Source: Octopus sinensis
Taxonomy: Eukaryota
DNA: 64,000 nt
Assembly: GCF_006345805.1 (NCBI RefSeq)
Contig: NC_042998.1
Coordinates: forward strand, 15,376,001 to 15,440,000
Direction: 5' to 3'
Position 1 is the first letter of the stretch. Each line of letters opens with the position of its first letter. Positions 39,001-45,000 of this stretch are shown in pieces. Position numbers: made by a program.

Positions 39001-42000
39001 ACGCTTATTTTTTCATAGATATAGATACACTTATTACAGGGTGGCCCAAAGTAGGTTTACAGTTATTCAACTATCTCTTTCGCATTCTTATACAGGGTGT
39101 TCAAAAAGTCTCTCCGCAGTAAGTATTCTATTGCAAAGTATTTATAAGACGGTATAAAACTACAAAAGGATATATTAGACTATACAAGACTTTAAAACAA
39201 CTTTATAAGAGGTGTTGAAAGAATATGCATTATTGATTTTACTTTCAGTGAGTTGGCTTACAAATATATAGACAAAATTTGATCAGTGAGAAAAATTCAT
39301 TGCGCAGATACTTTTTGATCTCCCTGTATTAAAAGTTTAGACCTTAATTATTAAAAAAAATGTGAAACCATTATTGTATTCTAATTCAGTTAATTTTGTC
39401 AAGCTCCCTTTTCAGTTTCTATTTTATTTTTTACAGGTACCGTAAAGTGTGAGCCATGGCAGACAAATTAAATCAAGAGAAAACTGGATACTAAAGTAGT
39501 ATTGGAAGTCTGAAAATGCCGAGCAGGTGCGCACAGCGTGGCAAGAAGCCTTTCCCACTACTCAACCTTCACGCCAGAGAATTTATCGGATAAGAAATAA
39601 ATTTGATACCACAGGTTCAGTGAGGAATGCACCAAAATCTGGACGCCGTAAGATTTCTGTGACTGAAAAAAAATGATATGGTAGTGGCTATGACATTTGT
39701 GAACAATCCAATGATGTCCACATAACGTGGTTCCCTAGAACTATCCATAGCAAGAACATCAATGTATTGAAATGTTCTAAAAGAAATTTAAAGTGCATGT
39801 GTGCTAAATGTAAACCTACTTTTGGGTTACTCTCTACCTTATTTCTTATGTGTCTGCGTGTGCAAGAGTATATATATATATATAAGGATAAGATCGTTAA
39901 TTTAAAAATAAAATAACGATTTTATCAAGTGGTCAGCATGGAAAAATAACTTTTAAAGGTAATAATTATTAAAATTATAAATTAAGGTATCTACGAGATA
40001 CCACCAAGCTTAAAATGGCAGGTATGATTACGGCTGCTATTTTCTCGTAGATACCGTAGATACCCTAATTTATAATTTTATATATATATATATATATGTA
40101 TATATATATATATATATATATATATATATATTATATATATATATATATATATATATATTATATATATATATATATATATATATATATTTCAACAATTGTG
40201 GGTAAAATTAATTAATTATTAATCAATTTCACCAAGTATTCAGTATGTAAAGGGACCATTTAAGGCGAATTCAAAATATTACATTTATTAAAGGGCTTAG
40301 TAAAATAAATTACTTTGCCACATACTGAACTCATTAGAAATAGCACCAAAAAAAAATTTTTAGCCAAATTCTAATACTTAAAGAAAATTTCTCTCAGATA
40401 GTGCTTACTCAAAATAGCCCACGAAGGTATGGGGGTAAAAACATTAAAAAATCACAAGTGCAAAGGTTATTTGAGAACGTACATTTCTAGATCAGCCAAA
40501 TACAATTCGACATTTCTTTCGTCAGCTCAAAATTCCTTAATTCGGATTTGTAAACACTGAAAGTAGGAGCATACCCTTTTGGCGACTTTTCACCTCCGAA
40601 GATCCGTTCAGACTAACAGTGCCAACAAATTCAAAATATGCAAGCGAAGAATTTCTGCCCTCCCCTTTCCACCCACGTGGGCTAACCTAGCAAACACCAT
40701 AATTTTATCGGTGAAAACCGAAGCATTAAACAGAGAGAAATGAATTATAATTTCAACAATTGAGGGTAAAATTAATTAATTATTAATCAATTTCACCAAG
40801 TATTCAGTATGTAAAGGGACCATTTAAGGCGAATTCAAAATATTACATTTTATAAAGGGCTTAGTAAAATAAATTACTTTGCCACATACTGAACGCATTA
40901 GGAATAGCAGCCAAAAAATTTCTTTTAGCCAAATTCTAATACTTAAAGAAAATTTCTCTCAGATAGTGCTTACTCAAAATAGCCCTCGAAGGTATGGGGG
41001 TAAAAACATTAAAAAATCACAAGTGCAAAGGTTATTTGAGAACGTACGTTTCTAGATCAGCCAAATACAATTCCACATTTCTTCGTCAGCTCAAAATTCC
41101 TTAATTCGGATTGTAAACACTGAAAGTAGGAGCATACACTTTTGGCGACTTTTCACCTCCGAAGATCCGTTCAGACTAACAGTGCCAACAAATTCAAAAT
41201 ATGCAAGCGAAGAATTTCTGCCCTCCCCTTTCCACCCACGTGGGCTAACCTAGAAAACACCATAATTTTATCGGTGAAAACCGAAGCATTAAACAGAGAG
41301 ATATGATTATAATTTCAACAATTGAGGGTAAAATTAATTAATTATTAATCAATTTCACTAAGTATTCAGTATGTAAAGGGACCATTTAAGGCGAATTCAA
41401 AATATTACATTTTATAAAGGGCTTAGTAAAATAAATTACTTTGCCACATACTGAACTCATTAGAAATAGCAGCCAAAAAAATTTTTTTAGCCAAATTCTA
41501 ATACTTAAAGAAAATTTCTCTCAGATAGTGCTTACTCAAAATAGCCCACGAAGGTATGGGGGTAATGGTAAAAACATTAAAAAATCACAAGTGCAAAGGT
41601 TATTTGAGAACGTACGTTTCTAGATCAGCCAAATACAATTCCACATTTCTTTCGTCAGCTCAAAATTCCTTAATTCGGATTTGTAAACACTGAAAGTAGG
41701 AGCATACACTTTTGGCGACTTTTCACCTCCGAAGATCCGTTCAGACTAACAGTGCCAACAAATTCAAAATATGCAAGCGAAGAATTTCTGCCCTCCCCTT
41801 TCCACCCACGTGGGCTAACCTAGAAAACACCATAATTTTATCGGTGAAAACCGAAGCATTAAACAGAGAGATATGAATTATAATTTCAACAATTGAGGGT
41901 AAAATTAATTAATTATTAATCAATTTCACTAAGTATTCAGTATGTAAAGGGACCATTTAAGGCGAATTCAAAATATTACATTTTATAAAGGGCTTAGTAA

Positions 42001-45000
42001 AATAAATTACTTTGCCACATACTGAACTCATTAGAAATAGCAGCCAAAAAAATTTTTTTAGCCAAATTCTAATACTTAAAGAAAATTTCTCTCAGATAGT
42101 GCTTACTCAAAATAGCCCACGAAGGTATGGGGGTAAAAACATTAAAAAATCACAAGTGCAAAGGTTATTTGAGAACGTACGTTTCTAGATCAGCCAAATA
42201 CAATTCGACCTTTCTTTCGTCAGCTCAAAATTCCTTAATTCGGATTTGTAAACACTGAAAGTAGGAGCATACACTTTTGGCGACTTTTCACCTCCGAAGA
42301 TCCGTTCAGACTAACAGTGCCAACAAATTTAAAATATGCAAGCGAAGAATTTCTGCCCTCCCCTTTCCACCCACGTGGGCTAACCTAGCAAACACCATAA
42401 TTTTATCGGTGAAAACCGAAGCATTAAACAGAGAGAAATGAATTATAATTTCAACAATTGAGGGTAAAATTAATTAAGAGTAAGCACTATCTGAGAGAAA
42501 TTTTCTTTAAGTATTAGAATTTGGCTAAAAAAATTTTTTTGGCTGCTATTTCTAATGAGTTCTGTATGTGGCAAAGTAATTTATTTTATTAAGCCCTTTA
42601 TAAAATTTTATATATATATATATATATATATATGCATGTGTGTATGCGTGTGCTGTGTGCGTATGTGTGTGTGTGTGTAAATGTATATTACTGGCCCGTT
42701 CGTCGACATTCTTCTCTTACATACCAGAGTGGTAGTTCCTAGTTAAGAGATTTACGAACTTACCACTCAATTTCCCATGCCTCAAAGGCGATTACAATGG
42801 TTTTCCGTTTTACATTATAGATTCTCTCGCATTGTGTGTCACCTTTTTTTCTAGTTTTCTTCTCTCTCTAAGTTTTGACTGTTAGTCATAAGCAGCAGTC
42901 GGAATATGCATAGATATATTCTATCTACTTATGAATGCGTATGTATAGATGTTTATATATAGCTTCATTATGCACGTGCATATACACATATAATTTTGAA
43001 AATCTACGTACTTCTGTGAGTAGCTTTTATCCCTCAAGTAGCATCTACCGTTTATACATTTCTGTTTTTCCATGGTGTTCTTCTCCATATATTTAAAAGT
43101 TTTTAACCAATTAAAGATTCATATAATGTCAGAAGCTCCAAATAATATATAAGTTGATGTACAAGTCACTGCATCTTATAAGGGAAACATCTGCGAGCCA
43201 AAGAAACTTATGACATAATTCATGTTTCATGTGTGAATAGAATATATAATATATAGCCACAAAATATAATATATATATATAAATATATATATATATATAT
43301 AATTAATTAAGATTCAGGTGAATTAGATACGTTAGTTGAAGCTCCAAATCAGTCTGGTATAAGCCGCACAGCACGAAGTAAGATGATTAAAATCAAAATT
43401 GTATTAGTGTGTCCTACTCGTTAAAAAGATCTATATTTTGCACAGCTGAAGATAGCACTGCATTTAAATTGATGTAATGATTGCACTGTTCAATGAAATG
43501 GAGCCGCTTGAAAAGGTCGTACTGCATTACTACTTGATATCCTGTTGCATATTTGGTTATATATATATATACATATACATATATGTATATCTATCTATCT
43601 ATCTATCTATCTATCTATCTATCTATATATCTATCTATCTATATATATATATATATATATATATATATGTATCACTTGACAACCGATGCTGGTGTGTTTA
43701 CGTCCCCATCGTCACTTAGCGGTTCGGCAAAAGAGACCAATAGAATAAGTACTAAGCTTACAAAGAATAAGTCTGGGGTCCATTTGCTCGACTTACGGCG
43801 GTGCTCCACCATGGCCACAGTTAAATGACTGAAAGAAGTAAAAGAAAAATAGAGATTAAAGAATATTATTTTCAAGTCAAAATCTCCTATAGGCATGTTA
43901 ACGACTCGTTATCTAGTTAGCAGCAAGGGAAATTCGAGAGATTAGGAAATATCCCAAAGGAATAAGATTGCCTTATAAGGAAATGTAAAAAAAAACACAA
44001 ATAAAAAAGAAAAGTATGAACGCGGTTGTACTTTTCGTATAAACGATTTGAAATATAATAATAGTCATACACAGGCATACAATACACACACACACAAACA
44101 CACACACACACACATATATATATATATATATATATATATATGTTCAAACATATAAGGGATGGCCATAATAGGACATCTGACTCACTAGAAAGAGCAGTTA
44201 AACTCCAAACCACTAATAGTTTTAATTCTGAAAGGGAAAGAGAAATAAAAACATTTACCCCATCCCTTTCAGAATTACAACTATTAGTGGTTTGGTGTTT
44301 AACTGCTCTTTCTAGTGAGTCGAATGTCCTATTGTGACCATCTCTTATGTGTTTGAATGTATATTACATAGTCTGTTGGCTATTTTTTCTTTTTCACTTG
44401 ACCGCTGGTAGCGGAGAATTTTTCTAGAATCTTTTGCTACCCTAAAATTTAATAATATATATATATATGTATATGTATATATGTGTATATGTATATATAT
44501 ATATGTATGGTTGTACATATGTATGTATGTATGTATGTATATGTACATACCTATCTCCACAAGCATATACATCCATTCATGCACAGATATGCATACATAT
44601 ATAGGCAAATGTTGAAAAACCGTGGTATTATATTATTACACACTGACACCAACGCAGGCAAACACTCCCACTCACCCCCACGCTCACCCCCACGCTCACC
44701 CCCACACGCATATACGTACACATGCATATAGATGGATAGATAGATACAGATGCACATATATGGATATATGTGTATGCCTGTTCAGATGAATAGATGTTTG
44801 TATCTATATCTTTGATAGTGTGTGTGTGCGCGCGCGCGTGTGTGTGTATGTGTGTGTACTTGTGTGTGCGTATGTGCTTCAGTGTGACTACGTTTGTTAG
44901 GCCCTTACCCGCATACTACTCAATGAAATTTAAATTAGAGGGTCTCTAACGACTGCAGAAATCGCATGTTTGCGTGTTTAAATTTACAGTCAATGATATA

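What the first reader, a model, noticed from the sequence alone, without database searches (positions are those of the whole stretch)
40187..42606. Retrozyme-like tandem array: four ~565-nt units each with a self-cleaving hammerhead
Seen: a non-coding head-to-tail array of nearly identical units, one type I HHR per unit on the minus strand with palindromic stem III (ACGTACGT), TA-flanked, with an inverted 5' end. Established: non-LTR retrozymes are tandem HHR repeats processed to monomers and circular RNAs and are proposed to be mobilised by PLEs. Inference: a cephalopod retrozyme family with a relatively long monomer, produced by rolling-circle reverse transcription. Adjacent units could supply the dimer partner for stem III. 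I cannot confirm whether it has been described.
Basis: partly seen in the sequence, partly recalled or inferred. Interest (0 to 1): 0.92.

Follow-up and report, generated by a model that had tools for sequence, protein, structure and literature searches.

The report
Hammerhead-ribozyme tandem retroelement in (TA)n
This is a four-copy tandem array of a small non-coding mobile element that carries a hammerhead ribozyme motif in each copy and was pasted into a TA microsatellite the way Penelope-like retrotransposons paste themselves, so it is a new example of a known kind rather than a new kind.

Summary
Window 40188-42477 is 4.06 head-to-tail units of 562-571 nt (96.6-99.1% identical). A 136-nt inverted piece joins it head-to-head at 42478-42613, and both outer ends lie in (TA)n.

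Each unit has, on the minus strand, a complete type I hammerhead core with an 8-nt palindromic helix III. Rfam does not recognise it. Three related elements in the same window support it:
- fam2 (16713-17952) keeps the core and loop letters while 10 base pairs change on both sides.
- fam3 (56806-57137) scores 23.1 bits on Rfam Hammerhead_1, below the 34-bit threshold.
- fam2b (37136-37541) has no ribozyme.

All four sit in (TA)n, three as head-to-head arm pairs, which is the published Penelope-like element (PLE) insertion signature. Truncated PLE remnants lie at 27.5-29.1 kb.

Best reading: a non-autonomous, PLE-mobilised, retrozyme-type element in an octopod-like genome.

Not shown: self-cleavage, circular RNA and rolling-circle copying. 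Arm end points and shared variants between units point instead to a linear multi-unit RNA template. A 565-nt monomer is within the published range of 51-972 bp.

Verdict: new member of a known kind, moderate interest.

The parts
40079..40187 (.). (TA)n microsatellite, left flank of the array (target)
   Evidence: Tandem Repeats Finder: period 2, 55.5 copies; flank check
40188..42477 (-). fam1 main array ('arm B'): 4.06 head-to-tail units; sense strand is minus; 5' end at 42477 (sense position 262), 3' end at 40181-40188 (sense position about 289-295)
40463..40538 (-). Hammerhead domain, unit 1 (helix III carries a C>U change that still pairs as G-U); predicted cleavage between 40476 and 40475
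   Evidence: 97.3 bits with own model R1
41028..41102 (-). Hammerhead domain, unit 2 (one A fewer after the CUGACGA box); predicted cleavage 41041|41040
   Evidence: 90.5 bits
41596..41671 (-). Hammerhead domain, unit 3; predicted cleavage 41609|41608
   Evidence: 97.8 bits
42161..42236 (-). Hammerhead domain, unit 4; predicted cleavage 42174|42173
   Evidence: 98.4 bits
42478..42613 (+). fam1 inverted 5'-truncated copy ('arm A'), joined head-to-head to the array; sense positions 66-201; no hammerhead
42609..42633 (.). (TA)n microsatellite, right flank
16713..17388 (-). fam2 left arm (arm A type): 1.23 units of a 551-nt unit, sense positions 68 -> 192 through one full unit; hammerhead domain at 16892-16973
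   Evidence: (87.4 bits)
17390..17952 (+). fam2 right arm (arm B type): 1.02 units, sense positions 301 -> 313; hammerhead domain at 17572-17652 with one A missing from GAAA and one helix I mismatch
   Evidence: (80.1 bits)
37136..37393 (-). fam2b left arm (about 77% identical to fam2): 5' end at the central junction, 3' end at site B; no hammerhead included
37396..37541 (+). fam2b right arm: same 5' end as the left arm, 3' end at site A; (TA)n beyond it
56806..57137 (-). fam3 single copy between two (TA)n tracts; hammerhead domain at 56942-57036 with standard G10.1-C11.1 and palindromic helix III
   Evidence: 30.4 bits, E 1.2e-4; Rfam RF00163 23.1 bits
27474..27815 (-). [quoted passage not shown] It shows that such elements exist in this genome; it is not shown to be the partner.
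28664..29060 (+). Second endonuclease-like remnant in the opposite orientation, separated from the first by (TA)n
   Evidence: By eye from the translations and sequence. Pfam found nothing in the 88-aa frame 28664-28930.

Best explanation
The array is a non-autonomous retroelement of the non-LTR retrozyme type: a short non-coding unit with one type I hammerhead motif, mobilised in trans by a Penelope-like element (PLE).

Proposed steps, all inferred:
1. The PLE enzyme (RT plus GIY-YIG nuclease) cuts both strands of a (TA)n tract.
2. Each cut end primes reverse transcription on element RNA at one of two internal sites: A, about 190-200 nt after the hammerhead cleavage site, or B, about 290-313 nt after it.
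3. The two cDNAs meet head-to-head. One becomes the 4.06-unit array and the other the 136-nt inverted piece.
4. The template held several units. I judge a linear, uncleaved multi-unit transcript starting about 47-68 nt after the cleavage site somewhat more likely (about 0.5) than rolling-circle copying of a circular monomer (about 0.35).
5. In RNA, the hammerhead would cut multi-unit transcripts at GUU|C, probably as a dimer through its palindromic helix III. Helix I brings the monomer ends together for ligation into a circle.

Shown here: the anatomy, the motif and its covariation, the target and the arm end points. Inferred: cleavage, circles, and which enzyme and which template were used.
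For: Anatomy: 4.06 units plus a head-to-head inverted piece, with no frame of 110 aa or more.

Motif: CUGACGA, GAA, an A15.1-U16.1 palindrome, U17 and C1.1 are present in 4 of 4 units.

Covariation with the independent fam2 copy:
- 10 pairs change on both sides and stay paired, while the core and the loop letters AAU/UAA and AWU/UGA are kept.
- On alignment A2, 98.8% of cells are paired against 31-45% when partners are slid. 8 of 16 pairs change on both sides, against 0-2 when slid.

Link to known hammerheads: my model R1 finds fam3 at 30.4 bits, E 1.2e-4. Rfam Hammerhead_1 scores fam3 at 23.1 bits, E 8.9e-4 on 131 nt.

Folding:
- Predicted dimers form an extended helix III: -32.0 against 2 x -12.1, and -39.5 against 2 x -14.8 kcal/mol.
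- The fam1 sense monomer folds at -146.4, z -3.92, with 0 of 100 shuffles as good. Its antisense gives -111.3, z -2.71.
- fam2 behaves alike: z -3.79 against -2.39.
- Helices I and II of the model appear in the whole-monomer minimum-energy folds.

Target: 8 of 8 ends of the four elements abut (TA)n, against 6.1% of positions in the window.

Literature:
- PLE insertions are partial tandems, often with an inverted 5'-truncated copy at the 5' end, and favour microsatellites including (TA)n (PMC8557442, passages).
- A purified PLE protein cuts and extends both strands, prefers AT-rich DNA and starts reverse transcription at internal sites (PMC11167929, abstract and part 1 of the main text).
- PLE hammerheads have a long helix II, an extra base after position 9, a palindromic helix III, and are proposed to act as dimers; dimeric and trimeric constructs cleaved weakly in vitro (PMC4209133, parts 1-2 of 4).

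PLE in the window: an endonuclease remnant whose 72%-identical relative P0122 has RVT_1 followed by a C-terminal GIY-YIG domain.
Against: - No Rfam hammerhead model matches fam1 or fam2 at gathering score (whole window). None matches at E<=10 on 3 kb around fam1 or on about 100-nt pieces of fam1 and fam2.
- The position next to the core is non-standard: A.A or C.A in place of the usually conserved G10.1-C11.1 (or a bulge plus an extra A before G12).
- The cleavage triplet is GUU. From recall, this is less efficient than GUC.
- The hammerhead domain alone folds no better than shuffles: z +0.45, with 126 of 200 shuffles at least as good.
- Animal PLE mini-hammerheads cleave poorly in vitro (PMC4209133).
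- Covariation rests on only two or three independent lineages.
- Arm 5' ends are not at the cleavage site. The fam2 arm and the array contain uncleaved sites. So cleavage was not needed to make these copies.
- The PLE remnants in the window share no nucleotide similarity with fam1-3 and have no hammerhead core in their 3' parts.
- Within the array the hammerhead domain is not better conserved than the rest: 4 of 76 columns vary, against 28 of 571 overall (my count).
- There are no expression data.
Confidence: 0.78

Rival explanations
1. Rolling-circle origin. A hammerhead-cleaved and ligated circular monomer RNA was copied about four times round by the PLE reverse transcriptase.
For: Both multi-unit 'B' arms are close to whole numbers of units: 4.06 and 1.02, with start and stop 12-33 nt apart in unit coordinates. 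This fits an enzyme that stalls each time it returns to its own priming junction. Helix I closes the monomer in the minimum-energy fold and brings the two ends together. Circular RNAs are documented for animal retrozymes (PMC7229834, passages).
Against: A circle has no 5' end, yet arm A of fam1, arm A of fam2 and both arms of fam2b start within sense positions 47-68. Of about 20 variant events among the four units, 4 are shared 2:2 (column 54 u1u2|u3u4; columns 337, 519, 567 u1u4|u2u3). Four copies of one circle with private later mutations would not give this, unless gene conversion acted. The sample is only two B arms.
Confidence: 0.35
2. An ordinary tandem duplication or satellite whose hammerhead-like motif is a dead relic or a chance match. 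There is no ribozyme activity and no retrotransposition.
For: Rfam finds no hammerhead in fam1 or fam2. The domain's folding energy is not better than shuffles. The base of helix II is non-standard. The loose descriptor hits 11 of 200 shuffled windows at least once. The motif is no better conserved than the rest of the unit.
Against: Four elements in 64 kb share the (TA)n target and three share head-to-head arms with recurrent end points. Unequal crossing-over does not produce this. Two families with almost no sequence similarity outside a 49-nt block keep the same core, loops and helix lengths through 10 two-sided changes. fam3 is picked up by Rfam Hammerhead_1.
Confidence: 0.08
3. The units are the repeated ends (pseudo-LTRs) of an autonomous PLE that lost its reading frame at this locus. 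On this reading it is a deletion derivative formed in place, not a separately propagating non-autonomous family.
For: PLE pseudo-LTRs carry the hammerhead and arise from partial tandems (PMC4209133 and PMC8557442). A 2026 preprint finds Xenopus retrozymes related to PLE pseudo-LTRs (10.64898/2026.07.22.740005, Results part 1).
Against: Four clean units without any trace of RT or nuclease coding sequence. Three further ORF-less relatives in the same window have the same arm end points. This argues that the ORF-less form itself is what moves. There is no similarity to the PLE remnants in the window.
Confidence: 0.1
4. Assembly expansion: the true locus has fewer units.
For: Complex PLE insertions are said to cause assembly problems, especially with short reads (PMC8557442, passage).
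Against: The four units differ by 5-19 substitutions and by indels, including a 6-nt insertion in unit 3. They are therefore not copies of one collapsed read pile.
Confidence: 0.05

Closest known systems
Non-LTR retrozymes of animals (Cervera and de la Pena 2020, PMC7229834; Li, Clavereau and Pollet 2026 preprint, 10.64898/2026.07.22.740005)
   Same: Head-to-tail repeats of a few hundred bp, with one type I hammerhead per unit, low G+C, no ORF, no LTR and a strongly self-paired RNA. They are proposed to depend on PLEs. Unit length (51-972 bp reported) and copy number (75% of families reach at most 7 units) match.
   Different: The 2020 paper ascribes canonical hammerheads with loop 1-loop 2 contacts to retrozymes, and the minimal variants to PLEs. 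Here the motif has PLE-like traits: a long helix II, an extra base after A9 and an 8-nt palindromic helix III. It also has an internal loop where loop 2 normally sits. Neither paper's text mentions a cephalopod: 0 hits for 'octopus' and 'cephalopod', and the preprint's sample is vertebrates, three insects and a coral. Circular RNA is not shown here.
Minimal hammerheads in the pseudo-LTRs of Penelope-like elements (Cervera and De la Pena 2014, PMC4209133)
   Same: [quoted passage not shown]
   Different: That paper stresses a highly conserved G10.1-C11.1 pair directly next to the core. fam1 and fam2 have an extra A before G12 (or an N.A mismatch), and only fam3 is standard. Helix I here is long (6 bp, a 3x3 internal loop, then 4 bp), not the short 4-5 bp described. 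No ORF lies between the repeats.
Rfam Hammerhead_1 (RF00163)
   Same: fam3 aligns over the whole 45-position model with the core intact (23.1 bits).
   Different: It is below the gathering score of 34. fam1 and fam2 give no match at all at E<=10.
PLE insertion architecture (Craig et al. 2021, PMC8557442; Frangieh et al. 2024, PMC11167929)
   Same: Partial tandems, an inverted 5'-truncated copy at the 5' end, a (TA)n/AT-rich target, both strands used as primers, and internal starts of reverse transcription.
   Different: The published 'tail' is 30-40 bp and the two start sites are adjacent. Here the two recurrent 3' ends are about 90-120 nt apart. The elements encode no protein.

Membership tests
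Hammerhead ribozyme, type I | Conserved core: CUGANGA box, GAA, A15.1-U16.1, H17 not G | tested here: met
   Present in 4 of 4 fam1 units and in 1 of 2 fam2 copies; the other fam2 copy lacks one A of GAAA.
Hammerhead ribozyme, type I | Three helices around the core with helix I open, supported by compensatory changes | tested here: met
   10 two-sided changes between fam1 and fam2. 98.8% of cells paired against 31-45% when slid, and 8 of 16 pairs with two-sided change against 0-2. Only 2-3 independent lineages.
Hammerhead ribozyme, type I | Standard G10.1-C11.1 pair directly next to the core | tested here: not met
   fam1 has A.A and fam2 has C.A at that place (or a bulged base plus an extra A before G12). 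fam3 has G-C.
Hammerhead ribozyme, type I | Score at or above the Rfam gathering threshold for a hammerhead model | tested here: not met
   No hit for fam1 or fam2. fam3 scores 23.1 bits against 34.
Hammerhead ribozyme, type I | Site-specific self-cleavage | not testable with these tools
   Needs in vitro transcription of one-, two- and three-unit constructs.
Non-LTR retrozyme | Head-to-tail repeats of a few hundred bp, each with one type I hammerhead | tested here: met
   4.06 units of 562-571 nt, with one motif each.
Non-LTR retrozyme | Non-coding, low G+C (<45%), no LTR | tested here: met
   No frame of 110 aa or more. G+C is 0.34-0.35. The only repeats are the units themselves. Primer-binding site and polypurine tract were not searched for.
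Non-LTR retrozyme | Highly self-paired monomer RNA | tested here: met
   Sense z -3.92, with 0 of 100 shuffles as good. As a circle, z -3.9 to -5.0 against mononucleotide shuffles. fam2 sense z -3.79.
Non-LTR retrozyme | Expressed as monomeric linear and circular RNA | not testable with these tools
PLE-mediated insertion (non-autonomous passenger) | Partial tandem plus an inverted 5'-truncated copy joined at the 5' end | tested here: met
   fam1, fam2 and fam2b all have head-to-head arms. fam3 is a single arm.
PLE-mediated insertion (non-autonomous passenger) | Insertion into microsatellite or AT-rich DNA | tested here: met
   8 of 8 ends abut (TA)n, against a 6.1% background.
PLE-mediated insertion (non-autonomous passenger) | A matching autonomous PLE (RT plus GIY-YIG) in the same genome that shares the 3' recognition region | tested here: inconclusive
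   PLE remnants exist in the window, but they share no similarity with fam1-3. The rest of the genome could not be searched.
PLE-mediated insertion (non-autonomous passenger) | 30-40 bp 'tail' at one end | tested here: inconclusive
   One arm of each pair extends about 90-120 nt further 3' than the other (site B against site A). This is the same idea at a different length.

The most novel reading that the evidence does not exclude
Octopod-like genomes may hold a family of ORF-less PLE passengers whose genomic copies record the PLE integration mechanism at nucleotide resolution. The record would consist of two fixed reverse-transcription start sites (A about +195, B about +300 from the hammerhead site), one on each strand of a cut (TA)n tract, and a fixed RNA 5' end about 47-68 nt downstream of the ribozyme site rather than at it. 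That would mean the hammerhead is not what defines the retrotransposed RNA. These elements may also carry a hammerhead variant that current covariance models miss: loop 2 is replaced by a conserved 3x3 internal loop capped by an extra helix, and a non-standard pair sits next to the core.
Probability: 0.3. Interest if true: 0.6.

Novelty: new member of a known kind. Interest (0 to 1): 0.42.

Why it matters
Retrozymes and PLE hammerheads are known, so the class is not new.

Three points make this locus useful:
1. It adds a cephalopod-like host. I found no description of retrozymes there ('retrozyme' with 'octopus'; with 'cephalopod'). The library searched lacks most subscription journals, and supplements were closed. 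Type I hammerheads are already counted in a squid genome: 235 Rfam loci (PMC6962438, passage).
2. The motif escapes Rfam. Genome annotations based on Rfam would therefore under-count such ribozymes.
3. Four related insertions in one 64-kb window share the same arm end points. That gives a testable genomic footprint of how PLE enzymes start on both strands, and it questions whether hammerhead cleavage defines the ends of the transposed RNA.

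Tried and rejected
Rfam at gathering score on the whole window gave nothing. Rfam at E<=10 on 39900-42900 gave only weak miRNA and snoRNA noise in the TA/TG repeats. The about 100-nt pieces of fam1 and fam2 gave only C/D-box snoRNA-like or lncRNA noise at 9-12 bits.

I considered a C/D-box snoRNA reading, because the CUGAYGA box resembles a C box and a CUGA lies downstream. I rejected it because the 'D box' is GUGA in fam2 and there is no terminal stem.

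Tandem Repeats Finder cannot see a 565-nt period.

MAFFT alignments A1 and A2 put the 5' strand of helix II out of register between families. So helix II was compared by script, and only helices I, IIa (2 pairs) and III went into the pair count and the model.

The 49-nt block shared by fam1, fam2 and fam2b shows no supported common structure: RNAalifold -2.06 kcal/mol, covariation term +0.22.

Of the 45 frames of 110 aa or more in the window, I sent 15 to Pfam. Five went: 2 matched LINE domains and 3 matched nothing. Ten went: 1 gave a weak GIY-YIG match and 9 gave nothing. One search scanned three further short window frames from 27.9-28.9 kb and found nothing.

BLAST of the three unit types against the PLE remnants gave no hit better than E 0.014.

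The first fam2 reference built was chimeric by my error. Its fam2 rows are void and were replaced.

One literature search was badly framed and returned only general cephalopod papers. Another ('hammerhead' with 'cephalopod') returned mostly shark papers.

Not checked:
- the rest of this genome, transcriptomes, Dfam and Repbase;
- the closed collections metagenome contigs and viral contigs;
- supplementary files of PMC4209133, PMC7229834 and PMC8557442, which hold the hammerhead alignments and species tables and could show that these families are already listed.

Genome contigs (bacteria and archaea only) was not used because it cannot hold this element.

Full report
WHAT IS THERE.

Window 40188-42477 holds 4.06 head-to-tail copies of a non-coding unit. 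The units lie at 40180/40188-40743, 40744-41305, 41306-41876 and 41877-42441, and are 564, 562, 571 and 565 nt long. A 36-nt start of a fifth unit lies at 42442-42477.

The units are 96.6-99.1% identical. They differ by 5-19 substitutions and several indels, so they are not an identical pile-up. No stop-to-stop frame of 110 aa or more overlaps the region.

At 42478-42613, a 136-nt piece of the unit lies in the opposite orientation, joined head-to-head to the array. Both outer ends run into (TA)n, at 40079-40187 and 42609-42633.

THE HAMMERHEAD MOTIF.

On the minus strand every unit has the following parts, in this order:
- a 4-bp outer helix I;
- a 3x3 internal loop (AAU/UAA);
- a 6-bp inner helix I;
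- CUGACGA;
- one extra base;
- a 3-bp helix IIa;
- a 3x3 internal loop (AAU/UGA);
- a 7-position helix IIb with one G.G mismatch;
- an A;
- GAA;
- the 8-nt palindrome ACGUACGU, which supplies A15.1 and U16.1;
- U17;
- C1.1.

All core positions needed for catalysis are present, and the topology is type I.

Three things are atypical:
- The position next to the core is A.A. It can equally be read as a bulged base plus an extra A before G12.
- Loop 2 is replaced by an internal loop capped by a further helix.
- The site is GUU.

No Rfam hammerhead model matches at gathering score. None matches at E<=10 on 3 kb or on a 101-nt piece. The isolated domain folds no better than shuffles, z +0.45. On its own, then, the motif would be only suggestive. 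My loose descriptor finds at least one hit in 11 of 200 shuffled windows.

WHY I ACCEPT IT AS A REAL HAMMERHEAD RELATIVE.

The window contains three more related elements.

fam2 (16713-17952, 551-nt unit) shares only a 49-nt block of 75.5% identity with fam1 outside the ribozyme. Yet it has the same architecture, with the same loop letters (AAU/UAA, AUU/UGA), the same UGAUCYAGAAAC string, the same GUU|C site and the same helix lengths. Ten base pairs differ on both sides and stay paired.

On alignment A2, using helices I, part of II, and III:
- 98.8% of cells pair, against 31-45% when partners are slid by 1-3 columns.
- 8 of 16 pairs show two-sided change, against 0-2 in the slid controls.

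A covariance model built from these copies was run over the whole window without filters. It returns the six known copies at 80-98 bits and one further hit, fam3 at 56942-57036 (30.4 bits, E 1.2e-4). The next hit is at E 0.45.

fam3 has a third set of helix I letters, a standard G10.1-C11.1 pair and the palindrome ACAAUUGU. Rfam Hammerhead_1 aligns to it end to end at 23.1 bits (threshold 34; E 8.9e-4 for 131 nt). The two alignments disagree on whether fam3 has C17 with two helix I mismatches or lacks position 17.

The covariation rests on two to three independent lineages only.

RNA-LEVEL SIGNALS.

Co-folding two copies of the domain predicts helix II as modelled, plus an extended intermolecular helix III:
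- fam1: -32.0 against 2 x -12.1 kcal/mol.
- fam2: -39.5 against 2 x -14.8 kcal/mol.

This fits the dimer mode that PMC4209133 proposes for such ribozymes.

The 565-nt sense monomer folds at -146.4 kcal/mol, z -3.92, with 0 of 100 dinucleotide shuffles as good. The antisense strand gives -111.3, z -2.71, with 2 of 100.

fam2 behaves alike: -157.1, z -3.79, against -142.9, z -2.39. Folded as a circle, the three fam1 monomers give z -3.9 to -5.0 against mononucleotide shuffles. Helices I and II of the model appear in the whole-monomer folds, and helix I closes the molecule.

HOW IT GOT THERE.

All four elements sit in (TA)n. 8 of 8 ends have a (TA)n tract within 12 nt, against 6.1% of window positions. 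Three of the four are pairs of arms joined head-to-head.

I numbered each unit from the predicted cleavage site. The arm end points are:

| Element and arm | Sense positions (5' -> 3') | Length |
|---|---|---|
| fam1 short arm | 66 -> 201 | 0.24 unit |
| fam1 array | 262 -> about 292 | 4.06 units |
| fam2 left arm | 68 -> 192 | 1.23 units |
| fam2 right arm | 301 -> 313 | 1.02 units |
| fam2b right arm | about 47 -> about 192 | no hammerhead |
| fam2b left arm | about 47 -> about 307 | no hammerhead |

fam2b positions are in fam2 numbering, and both of its arms start at the same point. The single fam3 arm ends at a site that aligns with site A.

So there are two recurrent 3' ends: A at about 190-200 and B at about 290-313. 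There is also one recurrent 5' end, at 47-68.

This matches the published PLE picture:
- partial tandems, an inverted 5'-truncated copy at the 5' end, and a microsatellite/(TA)n bias (PMC8557442, passages);
- an enzyme that cuts and extends both strands, prefers AT-rich DNA and starts reverse transcription internally (PMC11167929, abstract and part 1 of the main text).

The window also holds 5'-truncated PLE remnants:
- The frame at 27474-27815 (minus) has a weak GIY-YIG match: E 0.0099, 16.6 bits, below the 22.6 cut-off.
- Its relatives include P0122 (72% identical), with RVT_1 followed by a C-terminal GIY-YIG domain.
- A second endonuclease-like remnant lies inverted at 28664-29060. I judged this by eye; Pfam found nothing in it.
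- These remnants share nothing with fam1-3 and have no hammerhead core. They show only that such elements exist in this genome.

WHICH TEMPLATE.

For it:
- Both B arms are near whole numbers of units.
- Helix I brings the monomer ends together.

Against it:
- The recurrent 5' end at 47-68 is unexpected, since a circle has no end.
- The fam2 arm passes through an uncleaved site to stop at 68.
- 4 of about 20 variant events among the four units are shared 2:2.

I rate a linear, uncleaved, multi-unit transcript with a defined 5' end as somewhat more likely (0.5 against 0.35). Priming could be twin priming on one RNA, or priming of two RNAs by the two cut strands. The data cannot settle it. If it is right, hammerhead cleavage did not define the ends of the copied RNA.

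COMPARISON WITH WHAT IS KNOWN.

The array meets the descriptive definition of an animal non-LTR retrozyme (PMC7229834, passages). Its unit length and copy number are ordinary by the 2026 preprint: 51-972 bp, and 75% of families reach at most 7 units.

Its ribozyme resembles the PLE type more than the canonical retrozyme type. This fits the preprint's thesis that retrozymes derive from PLE ends.

The host is probably an octopod-like cephalopod. A LINE RT frame at 48459-50378 has its best named relatives in Argonauta hians, at 59-62% identity. I did not establish the species.

Literature searches:
- 'retrozyme' with 'octopus' found 3 papers, none on the subject.
- 'retrozyme' with 'cephalopod' found 2, only PMC8557442.
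- An Octopus vulgaris repeat paper mentions Penelope-like elements but neither hammerheads nor retrozymes (PMC13282606, passages).
- A giant squid genome paper counts 235 Rfam hammerhead-1 loci (PMC6962438, passage).

Supplements were closed, and Dfam and Repbase were not available. The families may therefore already be catalogued.

VERDICT.

The locus is a new member of a known kind. Two modestly novel aspects remain: a hammerhead variant that Rfam does not see, and recurrent arm end points that give a testable footprint of PLE integration.

Noticed in passing
window 16713-17952: Second hammerhead-bearing element (fam2, 551-nt unit). It has 1.23 units on the minus strand joined head-to-head to 1.02 units on the plus strand, in (TA)n. 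The plus-strand ribozyme copy has lost one A of GAAA.
   Followed up: yes
window 37136-37541: Relative of fam2 (about 77% identical), made of two head-to-head arms that start at the same nucleotide. One arm ends at site A and the other at site B. It has no hammerhead and lies in (TA)n.
   Followed up: yes
window 56806-57137: Single-copy third family between two (TA)n tracts. Its hammerhead is the only one in the window that Rfam Hammerhead_1 detects (23.1 bits, below threshold). It is unclear whether position 17 is present.
   Followed up: partly
fam1 sense positions 115-163 (e.g. window 42011-42059), fam2 16752-16800, fam2b about 37470-37510: A 49-nt block conserved in sequence across families (75.5% between fam1 and fam2), about 105-163 nt after the cleavage site and just upstream of 3' end site A. 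No supported common structure was found. It may be a recognition element for the reverse transcriptase.
   Followed up: partly
window 27474-27815 (minus) and 28664-29060 (plus): Two 5'-truncated remnants of a canonical Penelope-like element (GIY-YIG endonuclease end) in opposite orientations, with (TA)n at 28585-28640 between them and microsatellites outside. No hammerhead core was found in their 3' parts.
   Followed up: partly
window 47364-50378 (plus): LINE-type retrotransposon with an AP-endonuclease frame (47364-48275) and an RT frame (48459-50378), separated by a frame break. The best named relatives are from Argonauta hians.
   Followed up: partly
window 39960-40078: About 95-nt hairpin with long inverted arms directly left of the (TA)n flank. 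It gives a weak sub-threshold mir-5881-like hit (26.5 bits against 87) and looks like a small foldback or MITE-like repeat.
   Followed up: no
window 56640-56740: Long near-perfect palindrome flanked by TA repeats, just downstream of fam3. It is possibly another foldback element.
   Followed up: no
window 17951-18142, 32997-33188, 11398-11630, 24406-24509: Dispersed repeat of about 100-200 nt present in several copies and both orientations (73-89% identical). One copy lies directly right of fam2. It is SINE-like in size and was not identified.
   Followed up: no
window 40180-42441 (alignment columns 54, 337, 519, 567): Four variant sites are shared by two units each (u1u2|u3u4 once, u1u4|u2u3 three times). 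This points to a heterogeneous multi-unit template or to later gene conversion.
   Followed up: partly
whole window: Very dense (TA)n and related microsatellites: 153 (TA)>=4 tracts covering 4.4% of the bases. They seem to act as landing pads for several element types.
   Followed up: partly
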